This document shows positions 28,545 through 53,303 of a DNA stretch of 64,000 nt, piece after piece. Numbering within the stretch: position 1 is the first letter of the stretch; every line of letters begins with the position of its first letter. The notes below the pieces were generated by a model. It worked only from the letters and a program-made list of their open reading frames with translations. It did not search any database and was not told the origin of the DNA. Location of the stretch: NCBI GenBank assembly GCA_021791675.1, contig JAJYWE010000004.1, positions 28,054 to 92,053 of the forward strand. Direction: 5' to 3'. The translations under genes were made by a program, and so were the position numbers. The DNA comes from Actinomycetes bacterium (lineage in GTDB: Bacteria; Actinomycetota; Acidimicrobiia; Acidimicrobiales; JAKAOS01).

Positions 28545-28574
28545 TGGGCTTCCCCCCGCAGGCCGGACACCGAT

Positions 28575-29738: not shown

Positions 29739-29872
29739 GTCCCGAGGGAGGTGTCCGAGACCCCCAACTCGCGCGCCACATCCTTCAGTGGCCGGCCGGA
29801 GCTCCGGTAGAGCGCCACGGCATCTCGCTTGAACTCGTCCGTGTAGCGGCGGGTCGTCGGTCCCTTCCCCAT
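29585..29872 (-). CDS. IS3-family transposase OrfA
   Basis: [43 protein letters not shown], then a leucine-zipper-like tail. Confidence 0.85.
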
Positions 29873-29935
29873 TTCCCTATCCTCCTCCAGCTGTGCTGGT
29901 TCGGGGTGTCCGGGCTATGGGGGGAGGTTCACGTC

Positions 29936-30280
29936 ACCCAGCTGGTGCGCATCATGCGCGAGGTAGACGACGCTCGGACCAGGACCGCACGGCACACCGA
30001 GACCGTCTACGGGGTGACGAGCACCAACGCGGGAAGGCGGGTGCTGCTGGCGGCCAGCAGGGGCCAGTGGCAGATCGAGAACGGCCTGCACTGGGTGCGG
30101 GACGCGACGATGGGAGAGGACGCCTCCAAGGTGCGTTCGGGCTCCGCTCCCCGGGTGCTCGCCACCCTCCGCAACCTGGCGATCGGAATCCTCCGCCTGG
30201 CCGGTGTCGGAAACATCGCCAAGGGCCTGCGTCACCTCTCGCGTCGACCTGCAATCGCGCTCAGCTTGCTCGGGTTGTAG
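29936..30280 (+). pseudogene. ISAs1-family transposase, 3' part
   Basis: [44 protein letters not shown] is the ISAs1 C-terminal signature. It joins in frame to 28544 once the IS3 and one CGTC copy are removed. Confidence 0.75.
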
Positions 30281-30564: not shown

Positions 30565-31554
30565 ATGAGCGTCACTCCTGTCGACACCACTCGTCCCACC
30601 CTTGCCGTGCCTCTCTTGGCCGCCGACCGCACCGCAGTCGAGGCCGCCTTGGCGGCGGCGCGGAGCCCGGCGACCCGCCGAGCCTACGAGAGCCAGATGG
30701 GTGCATGGACGCGGTGGGCCGGTGAGCGGGGCTATCCGCTCGGCCCGCCGGCCGAGCCCGAGCACCTCGCCGGATGGCTGGTGTGGCTCGCGCAGCAAGG
30801 GCGCTCGGCGAGCAGCATCGGCCAGGCCGCAGCGGCTATCTCCGCCGCCCACGCAGACGCCGGCATCCCCGATCCGACACAGCACCAAGGCGTCCGGCTC
30901 ACCCTCGCCGGCATCCGGCGCCAGGTCGGCACCGCACCCCGCCGGCTGGCGCACCCGCTCACCACAGACGAGATCCGCAGGATCGTGGACGGGATCAACC
31001 GTGACAGCCTGCGTGGCAAGCGGGACAGCGCACTGGTCCTGATCGGCTACGCGGGCGCGCTGCGCCGGAGCGAGCTGGCCGGCCTGAGGACCAGCGACCT
31101 GTCCATCAGGCCCGCTGGCATCGTCGTCACCATCCGCAGGAGTAAGACCGACCAGGTCTCCGCCGGCCAGGTCGTCGGGATCGCCCGTGGGCGATCACCT
31201 GTTACCGATCCCGTCGCCGCCGTGCGCGACTGGATCGGTGCGGCTGGACTGGATGGCGACAGGTGGCTCTACCCGACCATTGCGTGGTCGGACGCGCGGC
31301 CGCTCTGCCGGCCGATCCGTGGCGAGGACGTGTGCCGCATCCTCGTGCGCCGCGCAGCGGCGGTCGGACTCGGCGACCTGCCGATAAGCGGTCACTCACT
31401 CCGGGCCGGGCACGCCACCACGGCCGCCCGGGCGGGAGTGCCCGCCGACCGTCTGGCCCGGACGACGCGGCACCGCAGCCTGTCCAGCCTCGCTCGTTAC
31501 GTCCGACCGGCCGAGGCGCTGGCCGACACCAGCTCGGCCGATCTCGGCCTGTGA
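30565..31554 (+). CDS. tyrosine site-specific recombinase (second one in element B)
   Basis: SAM-like N-terminal domain; catalytic region ...LRRSELAGL...GHSLRAGHATTAA...RHRSLSSLARY (R, HxxR, Y). Confidence 0.8.
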   Translation: MSVTPVDTTRPTLAVPLLAADRTAVEAALAAARSPATRRAYESQMGAWTRWAGERGYPLGPPAEPEHLAGWLVWLAQQGRSASSIGQAAAAISAAHADAGIPDPTQHQGVRLTLAGIRRQVGTAPRRLAHPLTTDEIRRIVDGINRDSLRGKRDSALVLIGYAGALRRSELAGLRTSDLSIRPAGIVVTIRRSKTDQVSAGQVVGIARGRSPVTDPVAAVRDWIGAAGLDGDRWLYPTIAWSDARPLCRPIRGEDVCRILVRRAAAVGLGDLPISGHSLRAGHATTAARAGVPADRLARTTRHRSLSSLARYVRPAEALADTSSADLGL

Positions 31555-33009: not shown

Positions 33010-33939
33010 TCAACTACTAACCCGTCCGTCCGGCACCCGGACCGCCCCGCGCCCCGCGGTGAGCTCGACGGAGACGCAGTGCTCGCCGCGGAACGTCTCG
33101 GTGACGGAAAGCGGTGCGCCCGCAGCGGCGAGTCGTAGCGCTGCGAGCTGCGGGCCGTGCGCGTCCAGCCAGGCGAGGGCGTCGAGTTGGAGTGCGAGCG
33201 GTTCGGGGGACTCCGCGACGCTCGGCGGCGCACCGCGGAGCGTGAGGGTGCCCATCTGCCAGGTGTCGAGGATTGTCTGCGCACCGGGCGGGACCGGCGC
33301 TGCGCCGGCCGGGGCCCGCGACGGCGACGGTGGCACGCTGGCGGTGTCAACGAGGCGGGCCACGATGAGCAGGCGGTCGGGGGTGAACCAGAGCGCGTTG
33401 GGCGGCCAGCAAGAGTCGAGCACCAGTTCGTGCGAGCCAACCTGCGGGATCGTCTGGCCGGGCTTCGCTACCAGGGAGCGGACGACGGCGAAGGTGGACC
33501 GCTCGCACCCGGCGGTGTAGGAGAGGGTCTGGCCCGGGCGGAGCGAGGCGTTCCGGGCGAAGTAGCCGACGTCGTGTGCCAGTAGCACGCTGGTGCCTGC
33601 CTGGCCGGGCCAGGGAGTGCCGGCGTCGTGACCCACCGCGACGGCGAGCGTCGCGCTGGACGTGCCCTGGACCACCGGCGCGGAGACGCCGCCCGGCAGG
33701 CCGGAGAGCACGCCCCCCGTGGCGGACGACGGCTCGCAGCGAACCGTCTCCACGGTCACGGGGGCGCGGCCGGGCCGCCTCTCGACCTGGCGGCTCTCGA
33801 CCTGGCGCGGGGCGCGTGACGCGGCGAGGGATGCGCCGACGACGGCCTGGTGGTGGGTCCAGAGGGCCGGGTAGGCGATCAGCACGCCGCTCGCAGCAAG
33901 GAGCGTGACGCCGGTGGCGAGTGCGACGGTGCGCAGCAT
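33010..33939 (-). CDS. sortase-family transpeptidase
   Basis: ATG at 33939 preceded by GAGGAGG; N-terminal TM; His region GTSVLLAHDVGYF; Cys region HELVLDSCWP; downstream Arg in RLLIVARLV. Confidence 0.7.
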   Translation of the reverse strand: MLRTVALATGVTLLAASGVLIAYPALWTHHQAVVGASLAASRAPRQVESRQVERRPGRAPVTVETVRCEPSSATGGVLSGLPGGVSAPVVQGTSSATLAVAVGHDAGTPWPGQAGTSVLLAHDVGYFARNASLRPGQTLSYTAGCERSTFAVVRSLVAKPGQTIPQVGSHELVLDSCWPPNALWFTPDRLLIVARLVDTASVPPSPSRAPAGAAPVPPGAQTILDTWQMGTLTLRGAPPSVAESPEPLALQLDALAWLDAHGPQLAALRLAAAGAPLSVTETFRGEHCVSVELTAGRGAVRVPDGRVSS

Positions 33940-33958
33940 GGGCGACCTCCTCGCCTGA

Positions 33959-36900
33959 TCAGGCAAGGTCCTCTGGGCGGGAAGCCACTCGCGCCCAGAG
34001 GACCTTGCCACCTCTCCGCGGGGGCACCACGCCCGCGGAGGGGGAGCTTGGGACGGATCTGCCCGCCCGCCGCCGCGGGGCGACGAGGGCGAGGCCGGCG
34101 AGGCCGAGACCTGCGGCGAGCAGGTAGTAGGTCACCCCGCCGGACCACGGCTCACCGGTGTGGGCCGGGGGGACCTTGGCCGGGGCCGGGGGGACCACCG
34201 GGGCCGGGGGCTTGGCTGGGGCCGGGGGGATCACCGGGGCCGGGGGCTTGGCCGGGGGGGAGGTGACGACGATGGACCAGGTGCCCTGGCCGGTGTAGGG
34301 GTCGCCGTAGTCCGGCGAGGTCGACTCGATCCCCTGCGGGGTCGCGATGAGGTGGCCGGAGGTGGCGGACGACCCTGCCACGAGACCAGGCGAGGTGACC
34401 TGCCCGGCCGAGTTGGTCACACCGTTCGCGGTGCTCGCCCCACCGGCGAACGTGACGCCGCTCGGGGCTGCGAACCGGACTTCCACGCCCGGTGCCGGCG
34501 AGCCGTCCGGCAGCGTGGCGGTGGCCGTCACGCCGGCGTGGCTGCCGCCCGTGGACATGTCCACGGTGCCGGAGCCGGCGAGGGTGACGGTGGGCCGCGC
34601 AGGTGCGCTTACGGCGGTGAGCACGTAACTACCGGCCCCCGACTCGGCCGCTGGCAGCCACGGCGACCACCCGGCATACCCCGCCGGCGTCGCGGTCGCG
34701 ACCAGGCCCGATAAGGCATAGTCGGCCACCAGCGGGGGGCTGGTCGCAACCCCCACCGAGTTGGTCACACCGTTCGCGGTGCTCGCCCCACCCACGAACG
34801 TGACGCCGGCCGGGGCCCGGAAGTCCACGGTGACACCGGACGCCGGGACGCCGGGGTCCGTCGCCACGGCAACCAGTCCACGGAACTGCTGGCCGACCCG
34901 GACAGTCTGGCTGCCGCTCCCCGTGAGCACGACGTGCGGCACCGTGCCGGCGACGAGCAGCTGTTGGGTGGCCGTGGTGGCCGGCTGGGCAGACAGCGCG
35001 AGCGACGAGCTCGACGTGCGCGCTGTGGCCGCCCAGGTGTGCCAGCCGGGCGCGAGCCCAGTGGCTTGGCAGGTCGCCACCGCGGGGACGGGACCGCCGC
35101 CCGTGGGGGGGTTGGACGTCGACACTGCCACCTGCACGTCCTGGCAGCCGTCGACGGGCAACCCGTCGACGCTGAAACCGACCGCCACCGGCAGGGCGGC
35201 GGGGCCGAACGCGTCGCCCATGCCCGGCCATGTCGGTCGGACCGACACGTCCGCGGTGAGCGTCGCGGTCGCCCCGGTCGGCGCCGTAATCGTGGTCCCC
35301 GCCGCGATCAGGTGGGGCAGGCTCTGCGCCGTGCGCGACACGACCGGATGCACCGCCGCGGGCGTGCCGGGACCAGACCAAAGGGCGTCGTAGGCGGTGA
35401 CACCGCCGACCGAGACGTCGTAGCCGAGCTCGGCGATGCTCGCGGCGTCGCTGACCGATACAGGACCGCGCTGGCACGCCGGACCCGACCACCACGATCC
35501 ATAGGGCACGCACACGATCTGGGGGCTGGCAAGTGGCGCGAGCAGCGCCCCCCAGCCGGTCGCTGACGACGACGGCCCCACCCCCCAGGCGGTCGGGGCG
35601 GGAGCGAGCCCGTCGACGATCACCTGGTAGCCGGGGGCGGCAGTAGACGGTGCGTCGATGGGCCTGAGGTGCGGGACGTACTGGTCCATCCCGCCGACCA
35701 TCACGCCCCAGGTCTCGAGGGCCTGGTGGCCCGGCAGGATCACGCTGGCCGCCCCTGCCAGCCACTCGCCGGCAGTAGGTGGGGCGATCTCTGGCGTGGT
35801 GCCAGAGATCGAGGAATCGCCGTGCCACGTGTTTGCCGTCGCGACAGCGACGGCGGACGGCACGGTGACGGCGAGCGGTGTGCCGGTGAAAAACGTCTCG
35901 CCCGCCACGGGCAGGGTCCCCGTGGCCGGCGTGGCGCCGGTGACGCGCCAGGTGGTCGGCCCGGCCGCCCTGACCACCGGCGGTACCCAGGTGGTCAGGC
36001 CGTTGACGGTGGTGGTGGGCGCCGCCGACCAAGAGACTGTCTCCGCGGCGTACGAGACCTCGAGCAGCCCACCCCACAGCGACATGGTCTGGGGCGGGAG
36101 GGTGGCGAGCTCAGTGAGCGCACCGGACGGGCTGGCGGTCACCGTCGCCGTCGGGTGCGCCGACGCCGAGAGCGTCTGGGCGTCGGAGTACCCTGCGCTG
36201 CCGAGCGCGTCTGCGACCGTCGGTGCTCCTGCGGCGGTCGGCCCGAGGATCGGCCCGAGGTCCGACGTCGATCCGGTCGGTGGGGTGGCGACGTAGACGG
36301 TGTGGGGAGCGTCGACCTGCTGTGCCATCTGGCGCTGGCCCGAGGCGGACCACGTTGCGGTCTCGCTGCCGTAGCCGCCGTAGCCGCTTGTAAAGCCGGC
36401 GGCGTCGGACCCCGGCCCCCAGAGCGCGGCGCCCCCCGATCCGGTGATCGGGCTGGCGCCGGATCCAACCTCCGGGAGCTGCGGGCGGATGCCGGTGCCG
36501 GCGGCGCCGTCGAACGCGGTCCCCGGCGGCAAGGCAGATGCCCAGATCGCGGGGACCTGTGTGTAAGAGGTCCCCGCGACCAGCTCAGCGGGGACCTCGG
36601 TCCCATCTCCCCCGCCCGGTATGACGCCGGCTGCTGCTGGCTGGAGGAAGACCGACGACGCCTGTGCGGGATCCAAGGACATCGTGGCCGTCGCTGCCGT
36701 CGGGTAGCCGGTCGGGGCCGAGCTCGGCCGGAGGATGGCGATCTGCCCCGGCGGACCGCTGCCACCGCCGTTGAGCGGCACGATCCGGGCATAGGTGTCA
36801 CTGCCGATCGCTAGGCCCGAGACGGTGTAGGTGGTAGCGGTGCCCGGCAGCGTCGTCACGACCGACCACGGCCCGGTCGGGACCGGAGAGGTCTCGACCC

Positions 36901-38227
36901 GCACGGTGGTCGCAGACGCGTCGGCAGACCAGGTGAGTGTGCTGGTCCCGCGACCGCCGGTGGACTGGCGGACCGCCAGCCCCGCGACGGCGGGCGGCGG
37001 ACTGGCGGTCGGTGTGGCGGTCGCACTGCTCGACGGTCCGGCCCCGACCGCGTCGACCGCGGTGACGGTCACGCCGACGGCCCGGCCGGGCGACAGGGCG
37101 GTGATCGTGTGTCGCAGCCCGGTGATCGTGGCAGTGCCGGTGGCACTGCCCTGCGTCCAGGTGATCCGGTAGCCAGTCGGCGCGGGCCCGCCTCCTGGTG
37201 TCCACGCCAGCGCGACCGACGTCGTGCCGGCGGCCACGGTGAGCCCCGCGACTGCGGCGGGCGGCGCAGTCGCCGCCGCGAGCTGCCAGACGGTCGTGCT
37301 GCTGCCGTACGACACGGACAGGATCTGGCCCGTGGCGGGGTCGGCGACGAGGGCCGTGGCGCTCCCGCTCGGCACCAAAGGCGCTGTGCCCGGGAGTGGG
37401 GTGAGCGCGCCGGTCCGCGTATCGACGGTGCCGAGGCCCGTGGTGGAGCTCGTCGCAGTCTCGGTGGTATAGCTCGCGACGAGCCCGACGCCCGGCACGG
37501 TCATCGCTCCGGTGAGGAGGGTGCCGGCAGGCGCGATGACCGGGAGTGAGGTCCATGCCGATCCGGTCCACGTGTCGATCTCGGTGGGATCGGACAGGGG
37601 GATCACCCCGAGCTGCCCGGTCGGGAGGGCGATGTACCCGTCCTGCGGCCAGCTCGGTTGCCCGCCGACCGTCGGGAGTGGGATGTGCAGCGTTGACCAG
37701 GTCGCGGGCGCCGTCGGGGACTGGCCAACGAGCGCGGAGCTTGAGGCCAGGGTCGCGGCCGAGTTGGGCGCGACGACCTGGCCGAGGGCCGGGACCCAGA
37801 CGGCCTGATTGGGGCTGTAGCCGGTATGCGGGACGTCTTGGACGCCGGGCAACGTGACCCAGGTGTTTTGGGGACCGAGCACCGCCTCCTCGGTCGCGCT
37901 CCCCCCGAGCACAGAACCGATCGCCAGGAGCCCTACGCCGGGCTCGTACGCGAGCTGGATCGGGCTCGCCAGCTCCGGGCCGGCGCTGGCCGGGATCGCC
38001 ATCGCCCACCTGGCGCCGGACCACTCGTACGTGGCGTAGCCAGCGAGCACCACGACAGTCCCGATGGCCGGGTCGTAGACCGCAGAGACGTTGGATCCGC
38101 TCGACCACGGGTTAGGCGTCGTCGTGACGACGCCGGGCGAGGCCGCTCGGGTGGCCGCTTGTGCTGGCGGGATGGCGACGGCGATGGCCAGCCCGGCAGC
38201 GGCGATGGCGGTGAGCAGTCGTCTCAT
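33959..38227 (-). CDS. 1422-aa surface protein with sortase-type C-terminal signal
   Basis: Signal peptide MRRLLTAIAAAGLAIAVAIPPAQA; FN3-like units (LAWTPGGGPAPTGYRITW); two Ig-like repeats (GVTF.GGASTANGVTNS.G); Pro-rich stalk; PAHTG + TM + RRR. Confidence 0.8.
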   Translation of the reverse strand: MRRLLTAIAAAGLAIAVAIPPAQAATRAASPGVVTTTPNPWSSGSNVSAVYDPAIGTVVVLAGYATYEWSGARWAMAIPASAGPELASPIQLAYEPGVGLLAIGSVLGGSATEEAVLGPQNTWVTLPGVQDVPHTGYSPNQAVWVPALGQVVAPNSAATLASSSALVGQSPTAPATWSTLHIPLPTVGGQPSWPQDGYIALPTGQLGVIPLSDPTEIDTWTGSAWTSLPVIAPAGTLLTGAMTVPGVGLVASYTTETATSSTTGLGTVDTRTGALTPLPGTAPLVPSGSATALVADPATGQILSVSYGSSTTVWQLAAATAPPAAVAGLTVAAGTTSVALAWTPGGGPAPTGYRITWTQGSATGTATITGLRHTITALSPGRAVGVTVTAVDAVGAGPSSSATATPTASPPPAVAGLAVRQSTGGRGTSTLTWSADASATTVRVETSPVPTGPWSVVTTLPGTATTYTVSGLAIGSDTYARIVPLNGGGSGPPGQIAILRPSSAPTGYPTAATATMSLDPAQASSVFLQPAAAGVIPGGGDGTEVPAELVAGTSYTQVPAIWASALPPGTAFDGAAGTGIRPQLPEVGSGASPITGSGGAALWGPGSDAAGFTSGYGGYGSETATWSASGQRQMAQQVDAPHTVYVATPPTGSTSDLGPILGPTAAGAPTVADALGSAGYSDAQTLSASAHPTATVTASPSGALTELATLPPQTMSLWGGLLEVSYAAETVSWSAAPTTTVNGLTTWVPPVVRAAGPTTWRVTGATPATGTLPVAGETFFTGTPLAVTVPSAVAVATANTWHGDSSISGTTPEIAPPTAGEWLAGAASVILPGHQALETWGVMVGGMDQYVPHLRPIDAPSTAAPGYQVIVDGLAPAPTAWGVGPSSSATGWGALLAPLASPQIVCVPYGSWWSGPACQRGPVSVSDAASIAELGYDVSVGGVTAYDALWSGPGTPAAVHPVVSRTAQSLPHLIAAGTTITAPTGATATLTADVSVRPTWPGMGDAFGPAALPVAVGFSVDGLPVDGCQDVQVAVSTSNPPTGGGPVPAVATCQATGLAPGWHTWAATARTSSSSLALSAQPATTATQQLLVAGTVPHVVLTGSGSQTVRVGQQFRGLVAVATDPGVPASGVTVDFRAPAGVTFVGGASTANGVTNSVGVATSPPLVADYALSGLVATATPAGYAGWSPWLPAAESGAGSYVLTAVSAPARPTVTLAGSGTVDMSTGGSHAGVTATATLPDGSPAPGVEVRFAAPSGVTFAGGASTANGVTNSAGQVTSPGLVAGSSATSGHLIATPQGIESTSPDYGDPYTGQGTWSIVVTSPPAKPPAPVIPPAPAKPPAPVVPPAPAKVPPAHTGEPWSGGVTYYLLAAGLGLAGLALVAPRRRAGRSVPSSPSAGVVPPRRGGKVLWARVASRPEDLA
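34150..34262 (-). repeat. coding tandem repeat (Pro-rich stalk PPAPAKPPAPV)
   Basis: Reiterated ggggccgggggcttggc / ggggggaccacc units visible in the sequence. Encodes PPAKPPAPVIPPAPAKPPAPVVPPAPAKVPP. Confidence 0.7.
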
Positions 38228-38231
38228 GATC

Positions 38232-39977
38232 TCAGTCCTCCCACGTGTCGGGTGGTGGCGGTGGTGGCGTCGGTGGTGGCGTCAGGTCGGTGGTGGGGCA
38301 GGCTCCCCGCGGCACCCCGATCGCGTCGAGGCGGTCGGGGAGCGTCGATGGCGGCGCCCAGGCGACGCGGAGGCCGCAGACTTGGCCGCCCTCGGATGCG
38401 ACGACGCCGAGCCCTCGGCTGCGGCCATCATCCAGGAGTGCCAGCTCGGCCTGGGCCTGGCTCGGCTGGTCGCCGTCAAAGACCATCTCGAGTGCGATGC
38501 GAGACGGCAGCTGTCCCGGCGGACAGAGCTGCACCCTGGACGTGAGGTTGGAGCGCAGCTCACCATCGAGATATCGCGCATCAGGCCGCTGGGCGGCCAG
38601 GACCAGGTGGATCCCGACATAACGCGCCTCGCGGGCGAGCTTGCCGACGACGAGAGCGATGCCCGCCCGCTGGGCGTTGGCCGCCTCGAGCTCCTCGCGG
38701 CGCGGGTCGTCACGGGCGAGGGCCGGTGGGACGCGGGCCTCGATCACCGTCGAGACGTACTCGTCGATGATCACGAGCGTCGGAGCGACCCGCTCGCGCC
38801 GGCGCACATCCGCCGGCAGGTCTGACCACTTGCCGGCCTCGTAGGCCCTCAGCACACTCTTGCGTCGCTGGGCCTCGGCGTATATGTCGTCGAGGAGGGC
38901 GGCTGCCGGAGCTATGTCATCGGCCCACCCCGCCGCCGCGTAAGGGCGGAGCCGGATAAAATCGACCCCCCCCTTGATCCCATCCACGATCGCAAGACGG
39001 TGGCCACGCGCGAGTGCCTGGGCGGCGAGGGCGAGCAGCGCCACCGTCTTACCCGAGCCGGTGGCGCCCACGGCGAGGACGTGCGGGCCCGCGGTGAGGT
39101 CGAGCGCGACGGGCTCGCCGCTGGCGTCTCGCCCGAGCGGTAGCGATGCCCAGTCGCTGCTCATCGTGTCCGGCAGCTCCGCGAGTAGATCGACGGTCTC
39201 CGGCAGCCGAGCGGGCGGTCGGTAGACGGCGAGCCACCTGCCCGCCAGTGCGTCGTCCAACACGTCCCACCGCTCGTGGCCGCCGGGGAGCAGCGACGCG
39301 ACGAGTGCCCGGATCAGCTCGTCGCGCTTGACGCTAGGTGGTGTCCACGCCGGGCAACCCACGTCGATCGCTGCTACCGGCGCGCCCGGGTCGGGCGCCC
39401 AGGTCACCGCGACCTCTACCTCCCAGGGCGCCAGTCGCATCGCCGCAGCGATCCGATCGCGCAGCGTGGCTGTCCAAGGCCATATGCGCGCTGCCGACGC
39501 GCTGCCCGCGGGCACGTCCGCCCGGACGAGTCGCAGCCCTTGCATCAGCAGATGGGCGTCGAGCTCCTGTAGGTCCCGGTCGGACGTCCGGGCGGCGAGT
39601 GTGAGTGTACGACCGTCCCAGTGCGGTGCGGGGGTGGCCGAGCAGACGGCCTCCCGCGTCGCGTCCAGCCAGGCCACGGGGTGCATCTGGGCGCCGGTGT
39701 GCGAGGCGAGACGGGCGACGAGGCGAGCGGTGTCCTCTGGATCGCCGCGGAATCCCGGGGGCACGCGCACGCGCAGCGATGCCGGCGGCTCGGGGGCGGG
39801 CGGCGTGGCGTGATCTCGCCACGCGTCGAGCGCCTCGAACGCCTGCTCTTGCCCGCCGGTGAGGTGCTCCAGCTCGTCGATTGCCGCCGTGGCAGTCTGG
39901 TCGTCGTGCGCGTTGAGCGCGGCGTGGAGGCGAGCGCAGGCCGCCCAGATCACGGTCTCGGGCCGGGTGCGCATCAC
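38232..39977 (-). CDS. FtsK/SpoIIIE-family DNA translocase (TraB-like)
   Basis: Walker A AVGATGSGKTVAL, Walker B TLVIIDEY, and the LVLAAQRPD motif. No N-terminal TM. Confidence 0.85.
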   Translation of the reverse strand: MMRTRPETVIWAACARLHAALNAHDDQTATAAIDELEHLTGGQEQAFEALDAWRDHATPPAPEPPASLRVRVPPGFRGDPEDTARLVARLASHTGAQMHPVAWLDATREAVCSATPAPHWDGRTLTLAARTSDRDLQELDAHLLMQGLRLVRADVPAGSASAARIWPWTATLRDRIAAAMRLAPWEVEVAVTWAPDPGAPVAAIDVGCPAWTPPSVKRDELIRALVASLLPGGHERWDVLDDALAGRWLAVYRPPARLPETVDLLAELPDTMSSDWASLPLGRDASGEPVALDLTAGPHVLAVGATGSGKTVALLALAAQALARGHRLAIVDGIKGGVDFIRLRPYAAAGWADDIAPAAALLDDIYAEAQRRKSVLRAYEAGKWSDLPADVRRRERVAPTLVIIDEYVSTVIEARVPPALARDDPRREELEAANAQRAGIALVVGKLAREARYVGIHLVLAAQRPDARYLDGELRSNLTSRVQLCPPGQLPSRIALEMVFDGDQPSQAQAELALLDDGRSRGLGVVASEGGQVCGLRVAWAPPSTLPDRLDAIGVPRGACPTTDLTPPPTPPPPPPDTWED

Positions 39978-40831
39978 AGCTCCTCCTCCGACAGGTCGAT
40001 TGTTTCCTCCTGTGCCGGCGAGCCGCCGCCGGCGGCCTCCTCGGCCGCCAGGCCGCCCAAGGACTCGGACGACTCTCGCCGGGCGGCCTCCGCGACGCTC
40101 ACGGGCTCGAGCCGGAGCGTGCCCCGCCCGGAGGGGACGAGCTGGTACTCGGGCATGTGGGCAGCGACACGCGCGGCGAGATCATCCCACTCGGCTGCGA
40201 CAGCAGTCCTCGGCAGCGGTGGACCGATCACGATCGAGTCGCCGTCGACCCCCCACGGCACGGCGCCGCCCTCCAGATCGGCCTGGCTGCACCCGAGGAC
40301 GACCGAGAGCGTCACGTCGAGCCCGGCCCGGCGCTGGCGCTGCGCTGCGAGGACGCGCACGCCAGAGATGCCCGCTCCCATGCCCGCTCCGACCACCGCG
40401 CCGTAGATCAGTCCTGCTGGGGTGAGCCCGACGACGACCCCCACGACGGCGAGCCCGACGACGAGGCCGGCGGCGGGCCAGCGCGGATCCAGCCGGGCCG
40501 CACGGATCCGATCCCGCAGCGGCATCGGTCCACCGGCGAGGAGGCGATCCGTGAGCTCGTGGCCGGAGGTGGCTCCGAGCAGGATCCCGAGCGGTACGGC
40601 GTCGATCCAGCTCCGGCTGATCGCGAGGTAGCCCGTGACCAGGGCTAGGCCCCCGGCCACGGGCGCGATGATGCCGGCGGCGCGCCGGAGGAGGCCGACG
40701 TGCACTCCGAGCGCCTCGCCGCCGGCGCCGGCGGGGACGGTCACGCCCACGATCCCGGCACGTCCAGCCCCGCGGCGCACACGACTGGCCGCCACGAGGA
40801 CCAGTGTCACGACCACAAGACCTGCCGTCAT
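39974..40831 (-). CDS. polytopic membrane protein coupled to the translocase
   Basis: ATGA overlaps at both ends; at least 5 hydrophobic segments; acidic C-terminal tail. Confidence 0.55.
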   Translation of the reverse strand: MTAGLVVVTLVLVAASRVRRGAGRAGIVGVTVPAGAGGEALGVHVGLLRRAAGIIAPVAGGLALVTGYLAISRSWIDAVPLGILLGATSGHELTDRLLAGGPMPLRDRIRAARLDPRWPAAGLVVGLAVVGVVVGLTPAGLIYGAVVGAGMGAGISGVRVLAAQRQRRAGLDVTLSVVLGCSQADLEGGAVPWGVDGDSIVIGPPLPRTAVAAEWDDLAARVAAHMPEYQLVPSGRGTLRLEPVSVAEAARRESSESLGGLAAEEAAGGGSPAQEETIDLSEEEL

Positions 40832-41634
40832 GCCGTCAGCTCCAGCTCCAGGCCGAAGCGCTCGACGAAGACCGTGCGTGCCTTGTCGAGTCGGCGGGAG
40901 CAAGTGGTCGCTGGCAAGCCGAGCCGGCGAGAGAGCTCGCCGACCCCCACCGGCTCGCCGTCGGGGTACCAGGAGATCCACTCGGCGGCAACGCGCCAGA
41001 CGTCGTCGGAAATGTCCCGACACTCGGAGAGGCACCGGGCGATCACCGCTGCGGCCTCGTGCGGGTACAGCTCAGGTTGGTCGTCGACGTAGGCGGCGTA
41101 CTCGGCGGCGACTCGCTTGCGATCCAGCCGAGCTGGATCGCACGGGGCGATCGTGTGGGGGGCGAGGTCGTCGGTGCTAGCGAGCGCCCCCTGGCGCGCT
41201 GCGTCGGTCCTGGAGGCACTACGAGCAGTGTTATGGGCAGCGACGAGCTCGTTGTCGGTTGGCTCGCGACCGAGGCGGGCGGTGAGTTGTGCACGGGTCC
41301 GGGACATGCCGCGCTGGCGGCGCATCGAACCCGTGTATCCGCCGAACCCGGTAGCCGCCCCGGACTCGAGCTCGTCGCGGAGCAGCGAGTGTGCGCGCAC
41401 GTACACCGCGGACGGCCAGGTCGGGCTGCCGGGGTGCCGGCCGTCCTCGAGAGCCCTGAGGGTGGCCAGGCGGACGAGCTGGCGGGCGTCGTCGAGGGAG
41501 ACGCGCTGGCGGGCTCGGCGGACGAGGATGGACGCGATCCGCTCGAGCACGACTGCTTGCGCGGTGAGCACGTCGGTGAGCGGGTCCGGGATGCGCGGTG
41601 CCATGCCTTTAACCATGCGGAGACTGGTGCTCAT
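40828..41634 (-). CDS. sigma-70-family-like protein
   Basis: Region-2-like VRLATLRALEDGR...YVRAHSLLRDEL, region-3-like TRAQLTARLGREPTDNELVAAH, region-4 HTH VGELSRRLGLPATTCSRRLDKART. Confidence 0.6.
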   Translation of the reverse strand: MSTSLRMVKGMAPRIPDPLTDVLTAQAVVLERIASILVRRARQRVSLDDARQLVRLATLRALEDGRHPGSPTWPSAVYVRAHSLLRDELESGAATGFGGYTGSMRRQRGMSRTRAQLTARLGREPTDNELVAAHNTARSASRTDAARQGALASTDDLAPHTIAPCDPARLDRKRVAAEYAAYVDDQPELYPHEAAAVIARCLSECRDISDDVWRVAAEWISWYPDGEPVGVGELSRRLGLPATTCSRRLDKARTVFVERFGLELELTA

Positions 41635-41999
41635 CGCTCGCTCTCCTGTCGTACGGAGGTCCCGATCTCGCTGCTCGGCCAGGTGCTATAGGCGCGCAGC
41701 GCGACTCTCGTCGCCGGGAGCATCCCAGCGCCGAGTGCGCAGCCAGGCAACGGCTCGACCGGCAGATCGTCGACCTCAGCGTCGGTGATCCCGGCCTCTA
41801 CCAGAGCGAGCCGGAGGCTGTCGGGCCTCCAGCCGGGCTCGACGAGCAGGATCGCCTCGACCTCCCACGGCGAGTAGGCGGTGAGCAGCACCTCCGGGCG
41901 CCCGCTCAGCTCCTGGTCGATCTCCTCGACCTCAGCCTCCCAGCTCCGGACCGCTATCACACGGATCCGTTTCGGAATCCGATCTTGGTGCCTGGCCAT
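41631..41999 (-). CDS. hypothetical protein (first gene of the sigma/translocase/adhesin operon)
   Basis: ATG at 41999 preceded by AGGAGA and by the 11-mer CCGCCCTCATA; ATGA overlap downstream. Confidence 0.5.
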   Translation of the reverse strand: MARHQDRIPKRIRVIAVRSWEAEVEEIDQELSGRPEVLLTAYSPWEVEAILLVEPGWRPDSLRLALVEAGITDAEVDDLPVEPLPGCALGAGMLPATRVALRAYSTWPSSEIGTSVRQESER

Positions 42000-42053
42000 C
42001 GTGTCTCCTATGAGGGCGGGCGATCTGCCCGCCAACCGGTTTTTTGGAGATTT

Positions 42054-42098
42054 CTTGCACAGACGGCCTCGCCCGATTGGCGAGGCCGTCTGTGCAAG
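42054..42098 (-). terminator. perfect 20-bp-stem hairpin starting 1 nt after the pilin-like gene stop
   Basis: CTTGCACAGACGGCCTCGCC-cgatt-GGCGAGGCCGTCTGTGCAAG. No U-tract on the minus-strand transcript. Confidence 0.6.
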
Positions 42099-42099
42099 A

Positions 42100-42702
42100 T
42101 CAGCTGGCTGCCGCAAAGCTGCTGGTCGACCAGCCTGATGTTGGGGTGGTGGATGCCGAGCAACCGCCGGCCGCAACGTTCGTTGCGCTGGCGAAGAAGG
42201 TCCCGGGGTGGGGCAAGAAACCGGACGAAACGTTGCCCAAACCGTTGATCTGCTGGACCAGCGAGCTGCTTGGCGACTCGACGTCGAGCGCCAGGTAGCA
42301 CGTCTTCGTCGCCGGCACATAGCTGGCCATCTTGAGGCTCAACCCGTTGGTCCCGGGGGCAAAGCTGATTGCCTTCGGCCCGCTGGACGGTCCAGAGTCC
42401 GTCCAGCTCAAAGCGGGCTCCGCGCCCTTGAGCGCCGTAACGCCGCTCGTTCCCACCAAGCCGCCATAGGGGCTGGCGGCCCCTGCGTCCTGCGTGTAGA
42501 TGGTCTTCGCTGCGACCACCGCCGTCGAGAGGTTGTGCTGGGCTGCGGCGTTTTGAGTCCCGCTGATCGCTCCGAGGAACGTCGGGACGGCGAAGAACGC
42601 GATGATCAGGCCGGCGAGGAGAAGACCGGCGAGAACGGTGAGCAGGCTCGTGCCGTCCTCGTCAAGATCGATGATCCTCGGCTCCCCAGTGATGGTTGGC
42701 AT
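42100..42702 (-). CDS. type IV pilin-like / pseudopilin-like protein
   Basis: ATG at 42702 preceded by GGAAAGGA. DEDG-TSLLTVLAGLLLAGLIIAFFAVPTFLGAISGTQNAAAQHNLSTAVVAAKTIY resembles a prepilin N-terminal helix but lacks Glu5. Confidence 0.45.
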   Translation of the reverse strand: MPTITGEPRIIDLDEDGTSLLTVLAGLLLAGLIIAFFAVPTFLGAISGTQNAAAQHNLSTAVVAAKTIYTQDAGAASPYGGLVGTSGVTALKGAEPALSWTDSGPSSGPKAISFAPGTNGLSLKMASYVPATKTCYLALDVESPSSSLVQQINGLGNVSSGFLPHPGTFFASATNVAAGGCSASTTPTSGWSTSSFAAAS

Positions 42703-42797: not shown

Positions 42798-45700
42798 CTA
42801 GAACTCCCGGCGATCAAGCTGCTCGGGCTCGACCTCGATGTCATCGAGGTCGAACGCCGAGGCAGGAAACACCCAGCACCGCCGCGCATCGCGGACGCCC
42901 AGGGCTGCCGGGGCCCGACCCGTTGGCGTCGTGCCGGGCACCACGAGCGCCGCCAGGCTCCGCGCAACCTGCCGATCCGCAAGACCTCGCATACCAGCAG
43001 TTTCCCGAGCGGCTCTCACGCCCGTCGGGGTCAACAGGACGTGCCGCCCGTCCCGCGAGAGCCACCCGAGGTGCCGCCCGCACGCGTCCCAGCGGTACGT
43101 GGTGCCGCTCGGCCCGTCGGACTCGCTGAGCCGCCAGCCGAGGCGGAGCGGCCTGCTCTCCCGAGCAGACTGCTCCTCACCGGCGAGTGGGCAGCGCCCA
43201 TCGGCGCCGAGGAGGTGTCCTTGCTTGCCGGCGAGCATGTCGCGGACCGCAGCCAACACCCGGCGGCCCGGATCAGCGTCTTGGTGAGCCGCCGCCTGGG
43301 ATCTCGCAAGCGCAGCGCACAGCTCGCGCACTCGAGCGGACGGCGGCAGCACGTCCTCGCCGACCCCCATCTCTGCCAGGCACCGGCGCAAGGCGCCGAT
43401 GCCAGCGGAGATTGCGGCCACGGTCTCTCCCGAGCGACCGTGGCCAAGAGCTGCGTACGCAGGGCGCCACAGGCCGTCTCCGATGGCACTGATGGCGTCC
43501 AGGCCGCCACCCGCGTCGGCCTGGGCCGCCAGCCAGGCCAGGTAGTGCCCGATGAGCGACCGGGCCAGGCCCGGCACGGCCCAACGCGCTCTCCAAGCGT
43601 CGATTGGCGGGTTATCGCTCGCGAGCCGCAGATCGCCAGGGCCGATCTCGATCAAGACCGTGCGCTGTAGGACAGCGGCGTCCGACGGCGTGATCTCGCC
43701 CGTCCAGACCACCGTGGTGCGGGGCTCTCGCCCCGAGCGGAGCCCGCCCCGCCGAGTCCCCTTGGCCCCCGTCGTACCGCCGTAGGCGGCCTGTAGGAGC
43801 CCACTGAGGACCTCCGTGGTGGTCTCGTTGGCACGACCGTCGTGGTCGGTCAGTCGGTAGTCGTCCGCATAGACCACGCCGTCGCGGTGCCAGCCCGCGA
43901 GGACGAGCGCGCCGATTGTCGAGCTCGACTGGATCGATAGCGTGGCGACGCCCTTTTGGACCGCGACGGCGGCGGTCCAGGCCGCGGTCGCGGCCAGGAG
44001 GAGCGACTTGCCCGAGTCCGGCTCGCCGATGAGGCCGATCGAGGGACGGGTGGCGAGCCGGAGCGGCGCCGCAAAGACGGCCCCGAGGAGAGCGAGACCA
44101 ACCTCCGGCCGGTCCGGAGCGATCCCGAGCCAGGCGGGGATCGCCAGGACTGCCTCGTCGAGCGGGGCCAAGGCGGGGGGCATCCCGGTTGCCGCTGCGA
44201 CGCCCGCAAGGGCGTCGTCGTCCGAGCCCACGGGCGGAGCCACCGCGGTGTCGTGGTCGACACCGCGTGCGTTGATCGATCCTCCGGGCGCCGCCCAGGT
44301 GGCGTGGTCGTCCTGCCATAGCCAGCCATTGAGCGCAGCGCGGGTCGTTACCGCCTGCTCTGCGTGCCCGAGGACGCGGAGCATATTGCCGACCCGCTGA
44401 GCATCCTGAGGCATAACGGGCAGCGCAACGCCAGCATTGAGCGCATCGACGACCCTGGCAGGAGACACACTGTCGGCCGCAGACAGGCCGTCGCGCCAAT
44501 ACCTACGACCGTCCCGACGGATCAGCTCGACCGCGTACTCGTCGATGCCGATCTGCGGTCGGCCCTGCTCGTCCACGCCGGCGGTCGTGCGGTGCTCCGG
44601 CCGCCACGCGATCCAGTCGGCCACAAGGTCGTCGGTCGGGATCGACTTGCCGTCGAGCCCGCGGGACCACGACCGGTGCCACAGGCCGTGCCGAGCCGAG
44701 CCGACCACGGCGATGCAGTCGCCGGGGAGCGCGATAGCAGTGCCGTCCGGGGCGCCGAGTGCCTCACCGAGAGCCGCGTCGGCGACGGGACTCTCCGCCT
44801 CGGCCAGGACGATCGGCGGGAGCCGATCCGGGACAGCGAGGACTGCTCGCAGATCTGCCGGCGAGCAGTCGGCGTGGTCGGCGAGCAGGCGGACGAGTGT
44901 GTCCTCGTCCGGGGCGAAACGTGCGACCTGGGCGGCGAGCCGGTAGTCGCCGCCGCAATAGGCGGCGGCGACGAAGGCAAACGAGTCGAGTGAGCTGCTG
45001 GGCTCGAGACCTAGGCGCTCGCAGGCGCTCGCCGAAAAAACGGTGAGCCGCTCGATGCCATCAGGATCCTCGTACGTCGCGGCTTGTACGGCTGAGCCGT
45101 GCGGCTCGGCCGGCTCGGCCCAGTGGCTCTGGCCGTCGGCTCCACCCACGCGCTCCCAGCCCAGGACACGCTCGAGGAGTACCGATACGGGGACGGCGGC
45201 GGCAAGCCGGTCTCCGGGCCGGTCGTTGTCCGCGTGGGCGACTCGGCGCTCTGGGAGGCGGCGAGTGGCCTGTCGAGCCGGTCGGGGCTGGAGCGGCGGC
45301 AGCCAAGCATCGAGCTCGTCGAGCGAGATGCGGCCGCCGGGGGCAGCGACGATCTCGACGGGCAGCGAATCGCATCCGGGCTTTCGCCGCGTGGTGCCCG
45401 CGACACGCAGCACCCGCGCGGGATCGGCAAGCACCCCCGCATCCAGATGGCGGCCGGCCACCTGGAAGGCGGCCACCCAGGCGGCCTTCCAGCGCTGCGC
45501 GAGCTGGCGTGGATCGTCGCTCGCGAGTGGCTCCGCGAGCGGCAGCCAGATGTGGCATCCGCCGCCGGTCTCGACGCGCATCCGCGGCCGGTCGCCGAGC
45601 AGGGCGGCGATGAGCTCGTCGGCCTCCTCCCGTGTCGGGAGGTTTTGAGCTGCATGGCCGGGGGCGGCCACGTCGACATCGGCAACGAGCGCGGGGTAGC

Positions 45701-46530: not shown

Positions 46531-46537
46531 TTTTGAG

Positions 46538-53168: not shown

Positions 53169-53229
53169 AACGACGGAGCTTCGGACCGTCTCAGGAGCAC
53201 CACACCGGCACTGACCTGCCCTTGGTGAG

Positions 53230-53303
53230 CGCCCCCGGCAGGACTCGAACCTGCGACCCGCTGCTTAGAAGGCAGCCGCTCTGTCCAGCTGAGCTACAGG
53301 GGC
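53230..53303 (-). tRNA. tRNA-Arg (anticodon UCU)
   Basis: Hand-folded cloverleaf: acceptor GCCCCTG/CGGGGGC, D arm GCTC/GAGC, anticodon arm GCTGC-CTTCTAA-GCAGC, T arm GCAGG-TTCGAGT-CCTGC. No encoded CCA. Confidence 0.9.

What the first reader, a model, noticed from the sequence alone, without database searches (positions are those of the whole stretch)
33010..42702. FtsK/TraB-type integrative element carries its own surface-display module: giant adhesin, sortase, pilin-like protein and sigma-like factor
Seen: one tightly packed minus-strand operon runs as follows.
- Hypothetical gene (41999), sigma-70-like, polytopic membrane protein and FtsK/SpoIIIE translocase, joined by ATGA overlaps.
- Then, after a 4-nt gap, a 1422-aa signal-peptide protein with FN3/Ig-like repeats, a Pro-rich stalk and a PAHTG + TM + RRR sorting signal.
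- Then, after a 19-nt gap, a sortase.
- A pilin-like gene with its own terminator lies immediately upstream (42100-42702).
Established: AICE-type elements of mycelial actinomycetes move double-stranded DNA with a single TraB translocase and are not known to need adhesins or pili. Sortase-anchored aggregation adhesins are a feature of Gram-positive T4SS plasmids such as pCF10 (PrgB).
Inference: this may be an undescribed hybrid. A TraB-type transfer system may have acquired a dedicated cell-cell contact apparatus and its own transcription factor, perhaps adapting FtsK-type conjugation to non-mycelial cells.
Basis: partly seen in the sequence, partly recalled or inferred. Interest (0 to 1): 0.8.

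Follow-up and report, generated by a model that had tools for sequence, protein, structure and literature searches.

The report
FtsK-pump mobile element with surface adhesin
A 28-kb mobile element sits in a tRNA gene of an uncultured high-GC actinobacterium and encodes, in one operon, a rare FtsK-like DNA pump, a giant cell-wall-anchored protein, its own sortase and a sigma-like factor; related elements repeat the pump-plus-surface-protein pattern, which suggests, but does not prove, a single-pump conjugation system that brings its own cell-contact gear.

Summary
Gene order, the 4-nt overlaps, the 4-nt and 19-nt gaps, the sortase (Pfam 1.8e-10), two FN3 domains, the PAHTG+TM+RRR tail and the hairpin after the pilin-like gene are all present.

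New context:
- The operon lies in a 28-kb element bounded by a perfect 43-bp repeat of the tRNA-Arg 3' end.
- The element is absent or replaced in sister strains.
- Its integrase is cut by an IS here but intact in another sample.

The translocase is not a TraB member. It belongs to a rare clade (about 22 to 35 clusters in billions of proteins) found in non-mycelial actinobacteria. By fold it is closest to the pCW3 coupling protein TcpA, then the FtsK motor. Its membrane partner is a separate gene here and a fused N-terminus in relatives.

No T4SS, relaxase or phage genes occur in the element or in 12 related loci. A wall-sorted protein lies next to the pump in 6 of 11 informative loci, but these proteins are mostly unrelated to each other. 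Only this element has a statistically supported sortase.

The sigma-like call is supported by fold. The pilin-like gene is a true PilA homologue that has lost F+1 and E+5.

Verdict: a new variant of AICE-like elements. The adhesin's role in transfer is plausible but unproven.

The parts
25278..25320 (.). attL: 43-bp perfect copy of the 3' part of tRNA-Arg(TCT); distal end of the element
   Evidence: repeat family D9; 2 matches, 0 expected
53229..53303 (-). tRNA-Arg(TCT); its 3' 43 nt (53231-53273) form attR, next to xis and int
52809..53099 (-). excisionase-like HTH_17 protein (96 aa)
   Evidence: (L022 gene 8578-8868, PF12728), mapped to the window
51894..52809 (-). tyrosine integrase, N-terminal part, cut by an IS. 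The C-terminal part lies at about 49492-49827. The allele in locus L025 is intact (413 aa, PF00589).
49828..51893 (+). IS (DDE transposase, DUF772/DDE_Tnp_1_6) inserted in int; absent from the same element in L025
46076..46800 (.). repeat-rich, lower-GC region upstream of rep. It holds 8 CGTCCMAA iterons, 75-nt and 116-nt direct repeats, and a 133-bp tandem duplication. Probable origin of replication and the only candidate cis site.
42798..45980 (-). Rep: primase-polymerase N-terminus plus P-loop primase/helicase C-terminus (1060 aa); conserved backbone gene of the family
   Evidence: phrog_2478 7.5e-15; phrog_1139 1.3e-6; homologues in 6 related loci; D5_N in the L010 homologue
42100..42702 (-). 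PilA-homologous pilin-like protein (200 aa). G-1 is kept, but F+1 is replaced by T and E+5 by T. It has its own RBS.
42050..42097 (-). 21-bp-stem hairpin (dG -46 kcal/mol) between the pilin-like gene and the operon; no U-tract
41631..41999 (-). first gene of the operon, 122 aa, no detectable relatives; RBS GGAG
40828..41634 (-). sigma-70-family-like protein (268 aa). Sequence evidence is sub-threshold; the fold search returns sigma factors only.
39974..40831 (-). polytopic membrane protein (about 4-5 TM segments plus a cytoplasmic domain). It is the split-off equivalent of the N-terminal TM domain of the longer pumps in relatives.
38232..39977 (-). FtsK/SpoIIIE-family ATPase (581 aa), single motor domain, clade-specific N-domain, no TM segment, no C-terminal wHTH
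33959..38227 (-). 1422-aa surface protein: signal peptide, 2 FN3 domains, Ig-like repeats, Pro-rich stalk, PAHTG + TM + RRR sorting signal
   Evidence: (D3, D20)
33010..33939 (-). divergent sortase (309 aa): N-terminal TM, His/Cys/Arg positions present, fits no curated class
30565..31554 (+). second tyrosine recombinase (XerC/D-like) in the lower-GC accessory arm of the element
26973..30280 (.). transposase-like gene (by inspection of the translations: an ISAs1-like gene interrupted by an IS3-like element); accessory arm
   Evidence: translations only, no profile test; GC dip

Best explanation
The region is the transfer and envelope operon of a 28-kb integrative element (window 25278-53273) inserted in tRNA-Arg(TCT).

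**Shown**
- The element has att repeats, xis and int, a primase-polymerase/helicase Rep next to an iteron-rich origin, and one FtsK-family ATPase.
- The membrane anchor of that ATPase is a separate upstream gene here and a fused N-terminal domain in relatives.
- No T4SS, relaxase or virion genes are present.
- It belongs to a rare family of about 18-20-kb elements found mainly in non-mycelial actinobacteria.

**Inferred mechanism**
1. After Int/Xis excision and Rep-driven replication, the membrane protein and the FtsK-like hexamer form a DNA pump. The pump moves the element into a neighbouring cell, as in AICE/TraB-type double-stranded transfer.
2. The co-transcribed 1422-aa protein is attached to peptidoglycan by the element's own sortase, through its atypical PAHTG signal. 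It holds donor and recipient cells together, playing the role that PrgB plays for pCF10 and CnaC/SrtD for pCW3. It could instead act in surface exclusion.
3. The sigma-like protein directs host RNA polymerase to the element's promoters.
4. The degenerate PilA-like protein, transcribed separately, is an accessory whose role is unknown.

The copy in this window is probably immobile, because an IS splits its integrase. An intact copy exists in another sample.
For: **Boundaries and mobility**
- 43-bp perfect repeat at tRNA-Arg.
- The same element occurs with an intact int and no IS in L025. A different element occupies the same tRNA in L023 and L026. In L027 and L028, homology starts only at tRNA-His.

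**Pump**
- Pfam FtsK_SpoIIIE 2e-15.
- Walker A and B residues are invariant across 22 clade members.
- The AF2 model has pLDDT 87. Its best PDB matches are the conjugative coupling protein TcpA (4.6e-20), then the FtsK motor (3.8e-17), then EccC (3e-14).
- Separate membrane proteins align to the N-termini of the 765-901-aa fused pumps.

**Backbone**
- Rep, the membrane protein and the pump recur in the related loci. A resolvase recurs in 6 of them, and int and xis in 3-4.
- No relative is found in IMG/VR, and PHROG shows no structural hits.

**Operon linkage**
- The gap between the pump and the adhesin gene is 4 nt here. The equivalent junction is 8 nt in L018, overlapping in L003 and 228 nt in L010.

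**Surface slot**
- A protein with a signal peptide plus a sorting-signal-like tail lies next to the pump in the window, L001, L003, L008 (LPATG), L010 (LPAQG) and L018 (LARTG). That is 6 of 11 informative loci.
- Three further loci carry other envelope proteins: SpaA-like, NlpC/P60, YkuD and signal peptidase I.

**Other support**
- Sortase: Pfam 41 bits, above the cut-off.
- Sigma fold: the top 50 PDB hits are all sigma factors. L012 has a bona fide ECF sigma directly upstream of its pump.
- Literature: AICE transfer needs one FtsK-like protein and no aggregation system in hyphae, and is thought ill-suited to cocci (PMC2440964, PMC3429521). SrtD is needed for efficient pCW3 transfer (PMC8225981).
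Against: - No experiment links any member of this clade to DNA transfer.
- The surface proteins next to the pump are mostly unrelated in sequence. Only L001/L010 and weakly L008/L010 match each other. The position could therefore be a cargo hot spot.
- Two loci (L021, L036) have no such protein.
- The sortase is validated only in this element.
- The sigma-like gene's only non-identical homologue is in an unrelated element.
- No pilin-like gene was found in the 11 relatives scanned.
- No clt-like repeat cluster and no DNA-recognition wHTH were found on the pump.
- Sequence profiles place the ATPase equally far from FtsK, EccC and TraB.
- The host is known only as an Actinomycetota MAG, so its growth form is unknown.
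Confidence: 0.5

Rival explanations
1. The element is an AICE-like mobile element, but the adhesin, sortase and pilin-like genes are cargo. They would be host-benefit or element-benefit traits, such as biofilm formation, attachment or masking of phage receptors, that happen to sit downstream of the pump. They would play no part in DNA transfer.
For: - Surface proteins at this position are mostly non-homologous between relatives.
- They are absent in L021 and L036.
- The sortase, the pilin-like gene and the sigma-like gene are each essentially unique to this element.
- The element's arm beyond the sortase is an accretion zone with IS copies and a second recombinase.
Against: - Tight coupling, a 4-nt gap or an overlap, between the pump and the surface-protein gene is seen in three loci whose pumps are only 41-50% identical.
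- The envelope theme recurs in 9 of 11 loci, including the peptidoglycan hydrolase NlpC/P60, which is typical of Gram-positive conjugation systems.
Confidence: 0.3
2. The element is an integrative mobilizable element. Its TcpA-like ATPase would be a coupling protein that hands the DNA to a T4SS supplied by a co-resident conjugative element, such as the T4SS-type element directly to the left of attL in this window.
For: - The best fold match of the ATPase is the T4SS coupling protein TcpA.
- tblastn hits C. perfringens Tcp plasmids but no Streptomyces TraB plasmid.
- A VirB4-like ATPase, a VirD4-like ATPase, a Replic_Relax protein and Tad genes lie at window 786-17482, directly next to the element.
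Against: - No relaxase or rolling-circle Rep is present in the element.
- No T4SS gene lies within 10 kb of the pump in any of the 12 related loci.
- The margin of TcpA over the FtsK motor is small.
- The neighbouring element has its own coupling protein.
Confidence: 0.12
3. The FtsK-like ATPase and its membrane partner are an EccC/EssC-like protein-export ATPase that secretes element-encoded envelope proteins, not a DNA pump.
For: - The NCBIfam EccCa score (41.7 bits) is as high as that for FtsK.
- EccC structures are found at E of about 1e-14.
- L021 has a T7SS_signal-domain protein nearby.
- Many secreted proteins surround the pump.
Against: - There is a single ATPase domain, against three in EccC/EssC.
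- The adhesin carries an ordinary Sec-type signal peptide.
- No WXG100, EccB, EccD or EccE partners were found.
- TcpA and FtsK rank above EccC by fold.
- The gene is always linked to Rep and often to Int, Xis and a resolvase.
Confidence: 0.04

Closest known systems
[quoted passage not shown]
   Same: - Integration in a tRNA gene by a tyrosine integrase plus Xis.
- Autonomous Rep (a Prim-Pol-type Rep occurs in some AICEs).
- A single FtsK/SpoIIIE-domain protein as the only transfer ATPase.
- No T4SS and no relaxase.
- Size in the 10-30 kb range (PMC2440964, PMC3218068).
   Different: - The pump is a separate, rare clade. It fails the NCBIfam TraB model and shows no similarity to Streptomyces plasmids at E<=1e-5.
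- It lacks a C-terminal wHTH and clt-type repeats.
- Its membrane anchor is a split-off gene.
- Relatives occur in non-mycelial genera (Frigoribacterium, Paeniglutamicibacter, Tessaracoccus).
- No Nudix/pif or GntR kor genes were recognised, and spd genes were not specifically sought.
- It carries a sortase-anchored giant surface protein, a sigma-like factor and a pilin homologue. None of these is described for AICEs.
Tcp conjugation locus of Clostridium perfringens pCW3 (TcpA coupling protein, SrtD sortase, CnaC adhesin)
   Same: - TcpA is the best structural match of the ATPase.
- pCW3 also combines an FtsK-like ATPase with a plasmid-encoded sortase that is needed for efficient transfer (PMC8225981, citing Revitt-Mills 2021).
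   Different: - pCW3 uses a full T4SS (VirB4-like, VirB6-like and VirB8-like proteins, hydrolases, a relaxase) and moves single-stranded DNA. None of these parts is present here.
- It comes from a different phylum, and sequence identity is about 29% over the motor only.
pCF10/pAD1-type Enterococcus conjugative plasmids with LPXTG aggregation substance (PrgB) and surface exclusion protein (PrgA)
   Same: The mobile element encodes its own sortase-substrate surface proteins, which promote mating contact or exclusion.
   Different: - Those plasmids use a T4SS and the host sortase A.
- There is no sequence relationship to the 1422-aa protein here.
- The comparison is a functional analogy drawn from general knowledge, not tested here.
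FtsK-like proteins of Micrococcales megaplasmids (Curtobacterium, Arthrobacter, Paenarthrobacter)
   Same: They share both the clade-specific N-domain and the motor (24-30% identity over 71-84% of the protein), and their hosts are non-mycelial.
   Different: - They are much more distant.
- In the one locus read (L035), the gene lies among Tad/T4P-like ATPase and T2SS-F genes, not next to a sortase or adhesin.
- Their function is uncharacterised.

Membership tests
AICE (operational definition of Ghinet et al. 2011, PMC3218068) | Site-specific recombinase (Tyr PF00589 or Ser PF07508) at the end of the element | tested here: met
   An HTH_17 xis and a tyrosine integrase lie next to tRNA-Arg. The window copy is split by an IS. 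The intact 413-aa allele in L025 carries PF00589.
AICE (operational definition of Ghinet et al. 2011, PMC3218068) | FtsK/SpoIIIE-domain (PF01580) transfer protein | tested here: met
   PF01580 E=2.1e-15, 57 bits against a cut-off of 24.
AICE (operational definition of Ghinet et al. 2011, PMC3218068) | Replication protein of RepSA, RepAM or Prim-Pol (PF09250) type | tested here: inconclusive
   No Pfam hit at E<0.01. PHROG 'DNA polymerase/primase' 7.5e-15 and 'DNA primase' 1.3e-6. The L010 homologue carries D5_N.
AICE (operational definition of Ghinet et al. 2011, PMC3218068) | Demonstrated conjugative transfer | not testable with these tools
   Needs mating experiments.
Streptomyces plasmid TraB (NCBIfam NF041214; pSVH1/pSG5 type) | Full-length match to the TraB equivalog model (cut-off 800 bits) | tested here: not met
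   32.7 bits, motor region only. Clade members L008, L010 and L012 score 25-39 bits. No Streptomyces plasmid is hit by tblastn at E<=1e-5.
Streptomyces plasmid TraB (NCBIfam NF041214; pSVH1/pSG5 type) | C-terminal wHTH that reads 8-bp clt repeats (feature list from general knowledge of the TraB literature) | tested here: not met
   After the motor only about 40 residues remain. They are Pro-rich and low-confidence. No clustered 8-mers exist apart from the ori iterons and the proline-codon repeats.
TcpA-type T4SS coupling protein (pCW3) | FtsK-like motor fold | tested here: met
   Foldseek best hits are 6o1w/6o1x/6o1z, E 4.6e-20 to 1.4e-17, TM-score (target-normalised) 0.66-0.68.
TcpA-type T4SS coupling protein (pCW3) | Encoded together with a T4SS (VirB4-like ATPase and others) and a relaxase | tested here: not met
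   None is present in the element or within 10 kb of the pump in 12 related loci. A T4SS does exist in the separate neighbouring element.
EccC/EssC type VII secretion ATPase | Two to three tandem FtsK-like ATPase domains plus T7SS partners | tested here: not met
   One ATPase domain. EccCa scores 41.7 bits against a cut-off of 509.
Sortase (PF04203) | Sortase domain above the Pfam gathering score, with catalytic His, Cys and Arg | tested here: met
   41.1 bits against 26.6. The motifs GH, SC(W)P and VAR are present. All five weak PDB sequence hits are sortases.
Sortase classes A-F (NCBIfam) | Score above a class-specific cut-off | tested here: not met
   Class D scores 36 bits against 165, and class E 27 against 160. 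The enzyme remains unclassified.
LPXTG-type cell wall sorting signal | LPXTG-like pentapeptide, then a hydrophobic segment, then a basic tail at the C-terminus | tested here: met
   ...KVPPAHTGEPW..., a TM segment at 1365-1383, then RRRAGR. The first motif position is P rather than L, so the motif is atypical and closest to the LAxTG type. Cleavage itself is not testable here.
Sigma-70 family | Regions 2 and 4 detectable (PF04542; PF04545 or PF08281) | tested here: inconclusive
   No r2 or r4 hit. Only r3 at E=0.029 and generic HTH hits appear. The AF2 model (pLDDT 64) gives sigma factors only as its top 50 PDB matches, best E=5.7e-4.
Type IV pilin (PF07963 N-terminal methylation/cleavage motif) | G|F(M)xxxE prepilin motif followed by a hydrophobic helix | tested here: not met
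   The protein aligns over its full length with 12 PilA proteins that carry PF07963. Gly-1 and the helix are conserved, but position +1 is T and position +5 is T. The protein itself has no Pfam hit. It is a homologue that has lost the defining motif.

The most novel reading that the evidence does not exclude
This is a previously undescribed family of single-ATPase (FtsK-type, T4SS-free) conjugative elements that works in unicellular actinobacteria. It would solve the cell-contact problem that hyphal AICEs do not face by encoding its own wall-anchored adhesin next to the pump. In this member the equipment is complete, with a private sortase for an atypical PAHTG signal, a private sigma factor and a pilin-derived protein.
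Probability: 0.3. Interest if true: 0.8.

Novelty: new variant of a known kind. Interest (0 to 1): 0.6.

Why it matters
FtsK-type double-stranded conjugation is regarded as an adaptation to hyphal growth. Reviews state that it needs no aggregation system and may be unable to spread among cocci (PMC2440964, PMC3429521).

A distinct pump clade sits in integrative elements of non-mycelial actinobacteria and repeatedly lies next to wall-anchored proteins. This gives a concrete, testable candidate for how the simplest known conjugation machine could work between separate cells.

It also flags a rare, unannotated protein family (pump N-domain, split membrane partner, divergent sortase) and shows a route by which mobile elements spread adhesins in environmental actinobacteria.

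Tried and rejected
1. **Prophage or satellite reading: rejected.** There are no PHROG structural hits and no relative of the pump in IMG/VR.
2. **TraB membership: rejected**.
3. **Sortase as a conserved family gene: not supported.** Motif-level candidates were L010 212 aa, L008 130 aa and L019 380 aa.
   - hhalign probability 0.2.
   - blastp not significant.
   - No Pfam hit for L019.
   - L010 gives Pfam Sortase at E=0.11 only.
   - A profile of the four sequences finds nothing in the PDB.
4. **Search for clt-like clustered 8-mers.** Only the ori iterons and proline-codon repeats were found.
5. **Third att copy that would delimit the left-hand element: none found**.
6. **Wider surveys had low yield.**
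   - The genome scan gave only 3 close loci.
   - The metagenome scan gave 1 close locus.
   - The look-up of the Frigoribacterium protein P0010 failed.
7. **Host taxonomy could not be resolved** beyond 'Actinomycetota bacterium'.
8. **Rfam found only the three tRNAs**.
9. **The sigma-70 consensus promoter scan found none** in 31.5-47.5 kb.

Full report
**Observation**

The window is high-GC DNA, about 73%.

Reading the junctions directly gives:
- ATGA overlaps between the 122-aa first gene and the sigma-like gene, and between the sigma-like gene and the membrane protein.
- A GTGA (or TGATG) overlap between the membrane protein and the FtsK-like gene.
- A 4-nt gap before the 1422-aa gene.
- A 19-nt gap, with a GAGGAGG ribosome-binding site, before the sortase.

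Pfam confirms FtsK_SpoIIIE (2.1e-15), Sortase (1.8e-10, above the gathering score) and fn3 (9.4e-13). A PDB sequence search resolves two tandem FN3 domains.

The large protein has a signal peptide, Ig-like and Pro-rich repeats (families D3 and D20) and the tail PPAHTG, TM, RRR.

The pilin-like gene (42100-42702, RBS GGAAAGGA) is followed by a perfect 21-bp-stem hairpin of -46 kcal/mol that lacks a U-tract.

**Element and its mobility**

A perfect 43-bp direct repeat (25278-25320 and 53231-53273) is the 3' part of tRNA-Arg(TCT). An HTH_17 excisionase and a tyrosine integrase abut the intact tRNA.

Contigs from other samples that carry the identical purK gene show four situations:
- L022 carries the same element.
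- L025 carries the same element without the 2.07-kb IS, which restores a 413-aa integrase.
- L023 and L026 carry a different integrase-bearing element at the same tRNA-Arg.
- In L027 and L028, homology to the window begins only at tRNA-His.

The 28-kb segment is therefore a strain-variable integrative element. The adhesin and sortase lie inside it. They are not seen in strains that lack it, within the limits of those contigs. The copy in this window is probably immobile.

Besides the operon, the element holds:
- A 1060-aa Rep with primase-polymerase and primase/helicase parts.
- An iteron-rich, lower-GC probable origin next to Rep.
- Two small paralogous secreted proteins.
- An accessory arm with nested IS copies and a second tyrosine recombinase.

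**The pump**

Among 5.8 billion proteins, only about 22 clusters match at E<=1e-37. The scores then fall to 1e-16, where chromosomal FtsK begins.

The first 270 residues recur in only 35 representative clusters out of 1.84 billion.

Named or titled relatives come from:
- Frigoribacterium.
- Paeniglutamicibacter.
- Tessaracoccus.
- An Actinomycetes MAG.

More distant relatives that share the N-domain sit on Micrococcales megaplasmids.

NCBIfam places the protein equally far from FtsK (43 bits), EccCa (42) and TraB (33, cut-off 800). Clade members behave the same way. tblastn against 72,556 plasmids finds C. perfringens Tcp plasmids but no Streptomyces plasmid at E<=1e-5.

A confident AF2 model (pLDDT 87) matches the pCW3 coupling protein TcpA best (4.6e-20). 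The FtsK motor follows (3.8e-17), then EccC (3e-14).

The protein has no TM segment and no C-terminal DNA-reading domain. In relatives of 765-901 aa, 3-5 TM segments form the N-terminus. In the shorter relatives, a polytopic membrane protein is encoded immediately upstream, and these separate proteins align with the N-termini of the fused ones. That split/fused relationship ties the membrane protein to the ATPase.

The label 'TraB-type' is therefore not supported. 'Membrane-anchored FtsK-family DNA translocase of a mobile element' is supported.

**Family anatomy**

I read twelve related loci.
- All-against-all BLAST shows Rep, the membrane protein and the pump recurring across them. A resolvase is found in six loci, and integrase and excisionase in three or four.
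- L008 and L010 show what look like complete elements of about 18-20 kb.
- None of the loci contains a VirB4-like ATPase or a recognisable relaxase.
- No relative is present in IMG/VR.
- By the operational definition of Ghinet et al. (PMC3218068), the window element meets the integrase and FtsK/SpoIIIE-domain criteria of an AICE; its replication protein only resembles the Prim-Pol type (PHROG hits, no Pfam PF09250 hit).

**The surface module**

Next to the pump, a protein with a signal peptide and a sorting-signal-like C-terminus occurs in six loci:

| Locus | Sorting-signal motif | Notes |
|---|---|---|
| Window | PAHTG | |
| L008 | LPATG | Big_9/Cadherin-like domains |
| L010 | LPAQG | |
| L018 | LARTG | |
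| L003 | LPEAG | SpaA domain; TM segment lies in another frame |
| L001 | unclear | TM segment plus RRR tail |

That is 6 of the 11 loci with enough downstream sequence.

Three more loci carry other envelope proteins:
- L012: two anchored paralogues.
- L019: a SpaA-like protein.
- L002: NlpC/P60, YkuD and a signal peptidase I above the Pfam cut-off.

L021 and L036 have none.

The gap between the pump and the surface gene is 4 nt in the window and 8 nt in L018. The two genes overlap in L003.

These proteins are mostly unrelated to one another. Proteins that look sortase-like by motif in L010, L008 and L019 fail every statistical test.

The conserved feature is therefore a slot for an envelope protein beside the pump, not a conserved adhesin-sortase pair. 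The validated private sortase, which fits no curated class, is specific to this element. It may exist because PAHTG is an atypical signal; that link is inference.

**Sigma-like and pilin-like genes**

Sigma-like protein:
- It has one non-identical homologue in the database (55% identity). That homologue lies in a different mobile element that carries DUF3854, SSB and NERD genes.
- Pfam gives only sub-threshold hints.
- The moderate AF2 model (pLDDT 64) retrieves sigma-70-family proteins exclusively.
- L012 has a true ECF sigma directly upstream of its pump.

Pilin-like protein:
- It aligns end to end with actinobacterial PilA proteins.
- It has lost Phe+1 and Glu+5.
- The 11 related loci whose proteins were scanned have no counterpart.

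**Mechanism**

The best-supported reading (confidence about 0.5) is an AICE-like element. Its split FtsK-family pump moves the element's DNA between cells. The co-transcribed, sortase-anchored giant protein would provide donor-recipient contact or exclusion, and an element-encoded sigma-like factor would drive expression. The analogy is with PrgB/PrgA of pCF10 and with SrtD of pCW3 (PMC8225981).

What is shown is the anatomy, the mobility of the element, the fold of the pump and the recurring envelope slot. What is inferred is DNA transfer itself and the role of the adhesin.

Rivals:
- The surface genes are cargo (0.3).
- The element is mobilised through a T4SS, with the ATPase acting as a TcpA-like coupling protein (0.12). 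A T4SS-type element lies immediately to the left.
- The ATPase is an EccC-like protein exporter (0.04).

**Comparison and novelty**

Reviews state that AICE transfer needs a single FtsK-like protein and no aggregation system because hyphae grow together (PMC2440964). They also state that the mechanism may not spread among cocci (PMC3429521).

Full-text searches found no paper that links AICEs with sortases. Only one general T4SS review holds all the related terms.

The element is best filed as a new variant of a known kind. It is AICE-like in logic. It differs in having a distinct pump clade, a split membrane anchor, hosts that appear non-mycelial, and a built-in envelope module.

Noticed in passing
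window 786-25270: Directly left of attL lies what looks like a second, T4SS-type conjugative element combined with a Tad-pilus locus. Its genes are:
- TadE-like genes (786-2187).
- T2SS-F/TadB-like gene (2427-3407).
- T2SS-E/CpaF-like ATPase (4186-5508).
- SAF-domain protein (6329-7258).
- Crp-type regulator (8903-9697).
- Replic_Relax protein (10880-11776).
- VirD4-like protein (11773-14799) and VirB4-like protein (14435-17482).
- MarR regulator and two DNA methylases.
- A large serine recombinase (23761 to about 25270), whose reading frame runs into the tRNA fragment.

The left boundary of this element is outside the window or was not found.
   Followed up: partly
window 58900-63444: A 4.5-kb segment encodes an rve/Mu-transpos_C transposase, an AAA_22 ATPase and two further proteins. 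It interrupts a LysE gene. It is absent from otherwise 99%-identical contigs L025 and L028, so it is a strain-variable transposon.
   Followed up: partly
window 49828-51893 and L025:4543-5784: An IS with a DUF772/DDE_Tnp_1_6 transposase splits the element's integrase. The alignment pieces overlap by about 10 bp at the junction, which may be a target-site duplication. L025 has the uninterrupted 413-aa integrase.
   Followed up: yes
window 46537-46785: A 133-bp tandem duplication (116 nt, 97% identical) in the probable origin region is present once only in L022 and L025.
   Followed up: partly
window 47280-47606 and 47670-48002 (+): Two paralogous small proteins (108 and 110 aa, 44% identical) have an N-terminal hydrophobic segment and a shared C-terminal 'WAITACEV...C' motif. 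They are preceded by TAGTAG/CTACTA repeats. No family match was found.
   Followed up: no
L023 and L026 (same tRNA-Arg site as window 53229): In sister strains a different integrative element occupies the same tRNA-Arg. It carries a 406-aa integrase, a 112-aa HTH_17 protein, a 365-aa protein, a DEAD/Helicase_C_2 helicase and an AAA_5 protein. The site is a hot spot for several elements.
   Followed up: partly
L035 (Curtobacterium sp. MCBD17_040 plasmid D40, 6202-35668): A distant relative of the pump, sharing its N-domain, sits on a 608-kb Micrococcales plasmid. It lies beside a T2SS-F family gene, and two 'T2SS/T4P/T4SS family' ATPases lie about 7-10 kb away, close to ParB, ParA and RepA genes. 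This may be a link between FtsK-like pumps and Tad/T4P-like machinery.
   Followed up: no
L002:5227-5853, L018:6210-6725, L018:5504-6145: Two related elements encode a signal peptidase I (Peptidase_S26; above the Pfam cut-off in L002, sub-threshold in L018). In L018 it lies beside a secreted protein whose signal peptide looked SipW/TasA-type to me (not tested against any profile). This would be a different private processing enzyme for a surface protein.
   Followed up: partly
L012:5050-6993, L019:2738-4312, L003:49-1353: Three related elements carry a family-A DNA polymerase homologue (DNA_pol_A in L012 and L019; the L003 protein groups with them by BLAST), either alongside or instead of the Rep type seen in the window. 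The replication module of the family is interchangeable.
   Followed up: no
L032:150-15040: The only non-identical homologue of the sigma-like protein lies in another mobile-element-like context. That context has a DUF3854 protein, an AAA_25/CbiA ATPase, SSB and a NERD protein, and no FtsK-like gene.
   Followed up: partly
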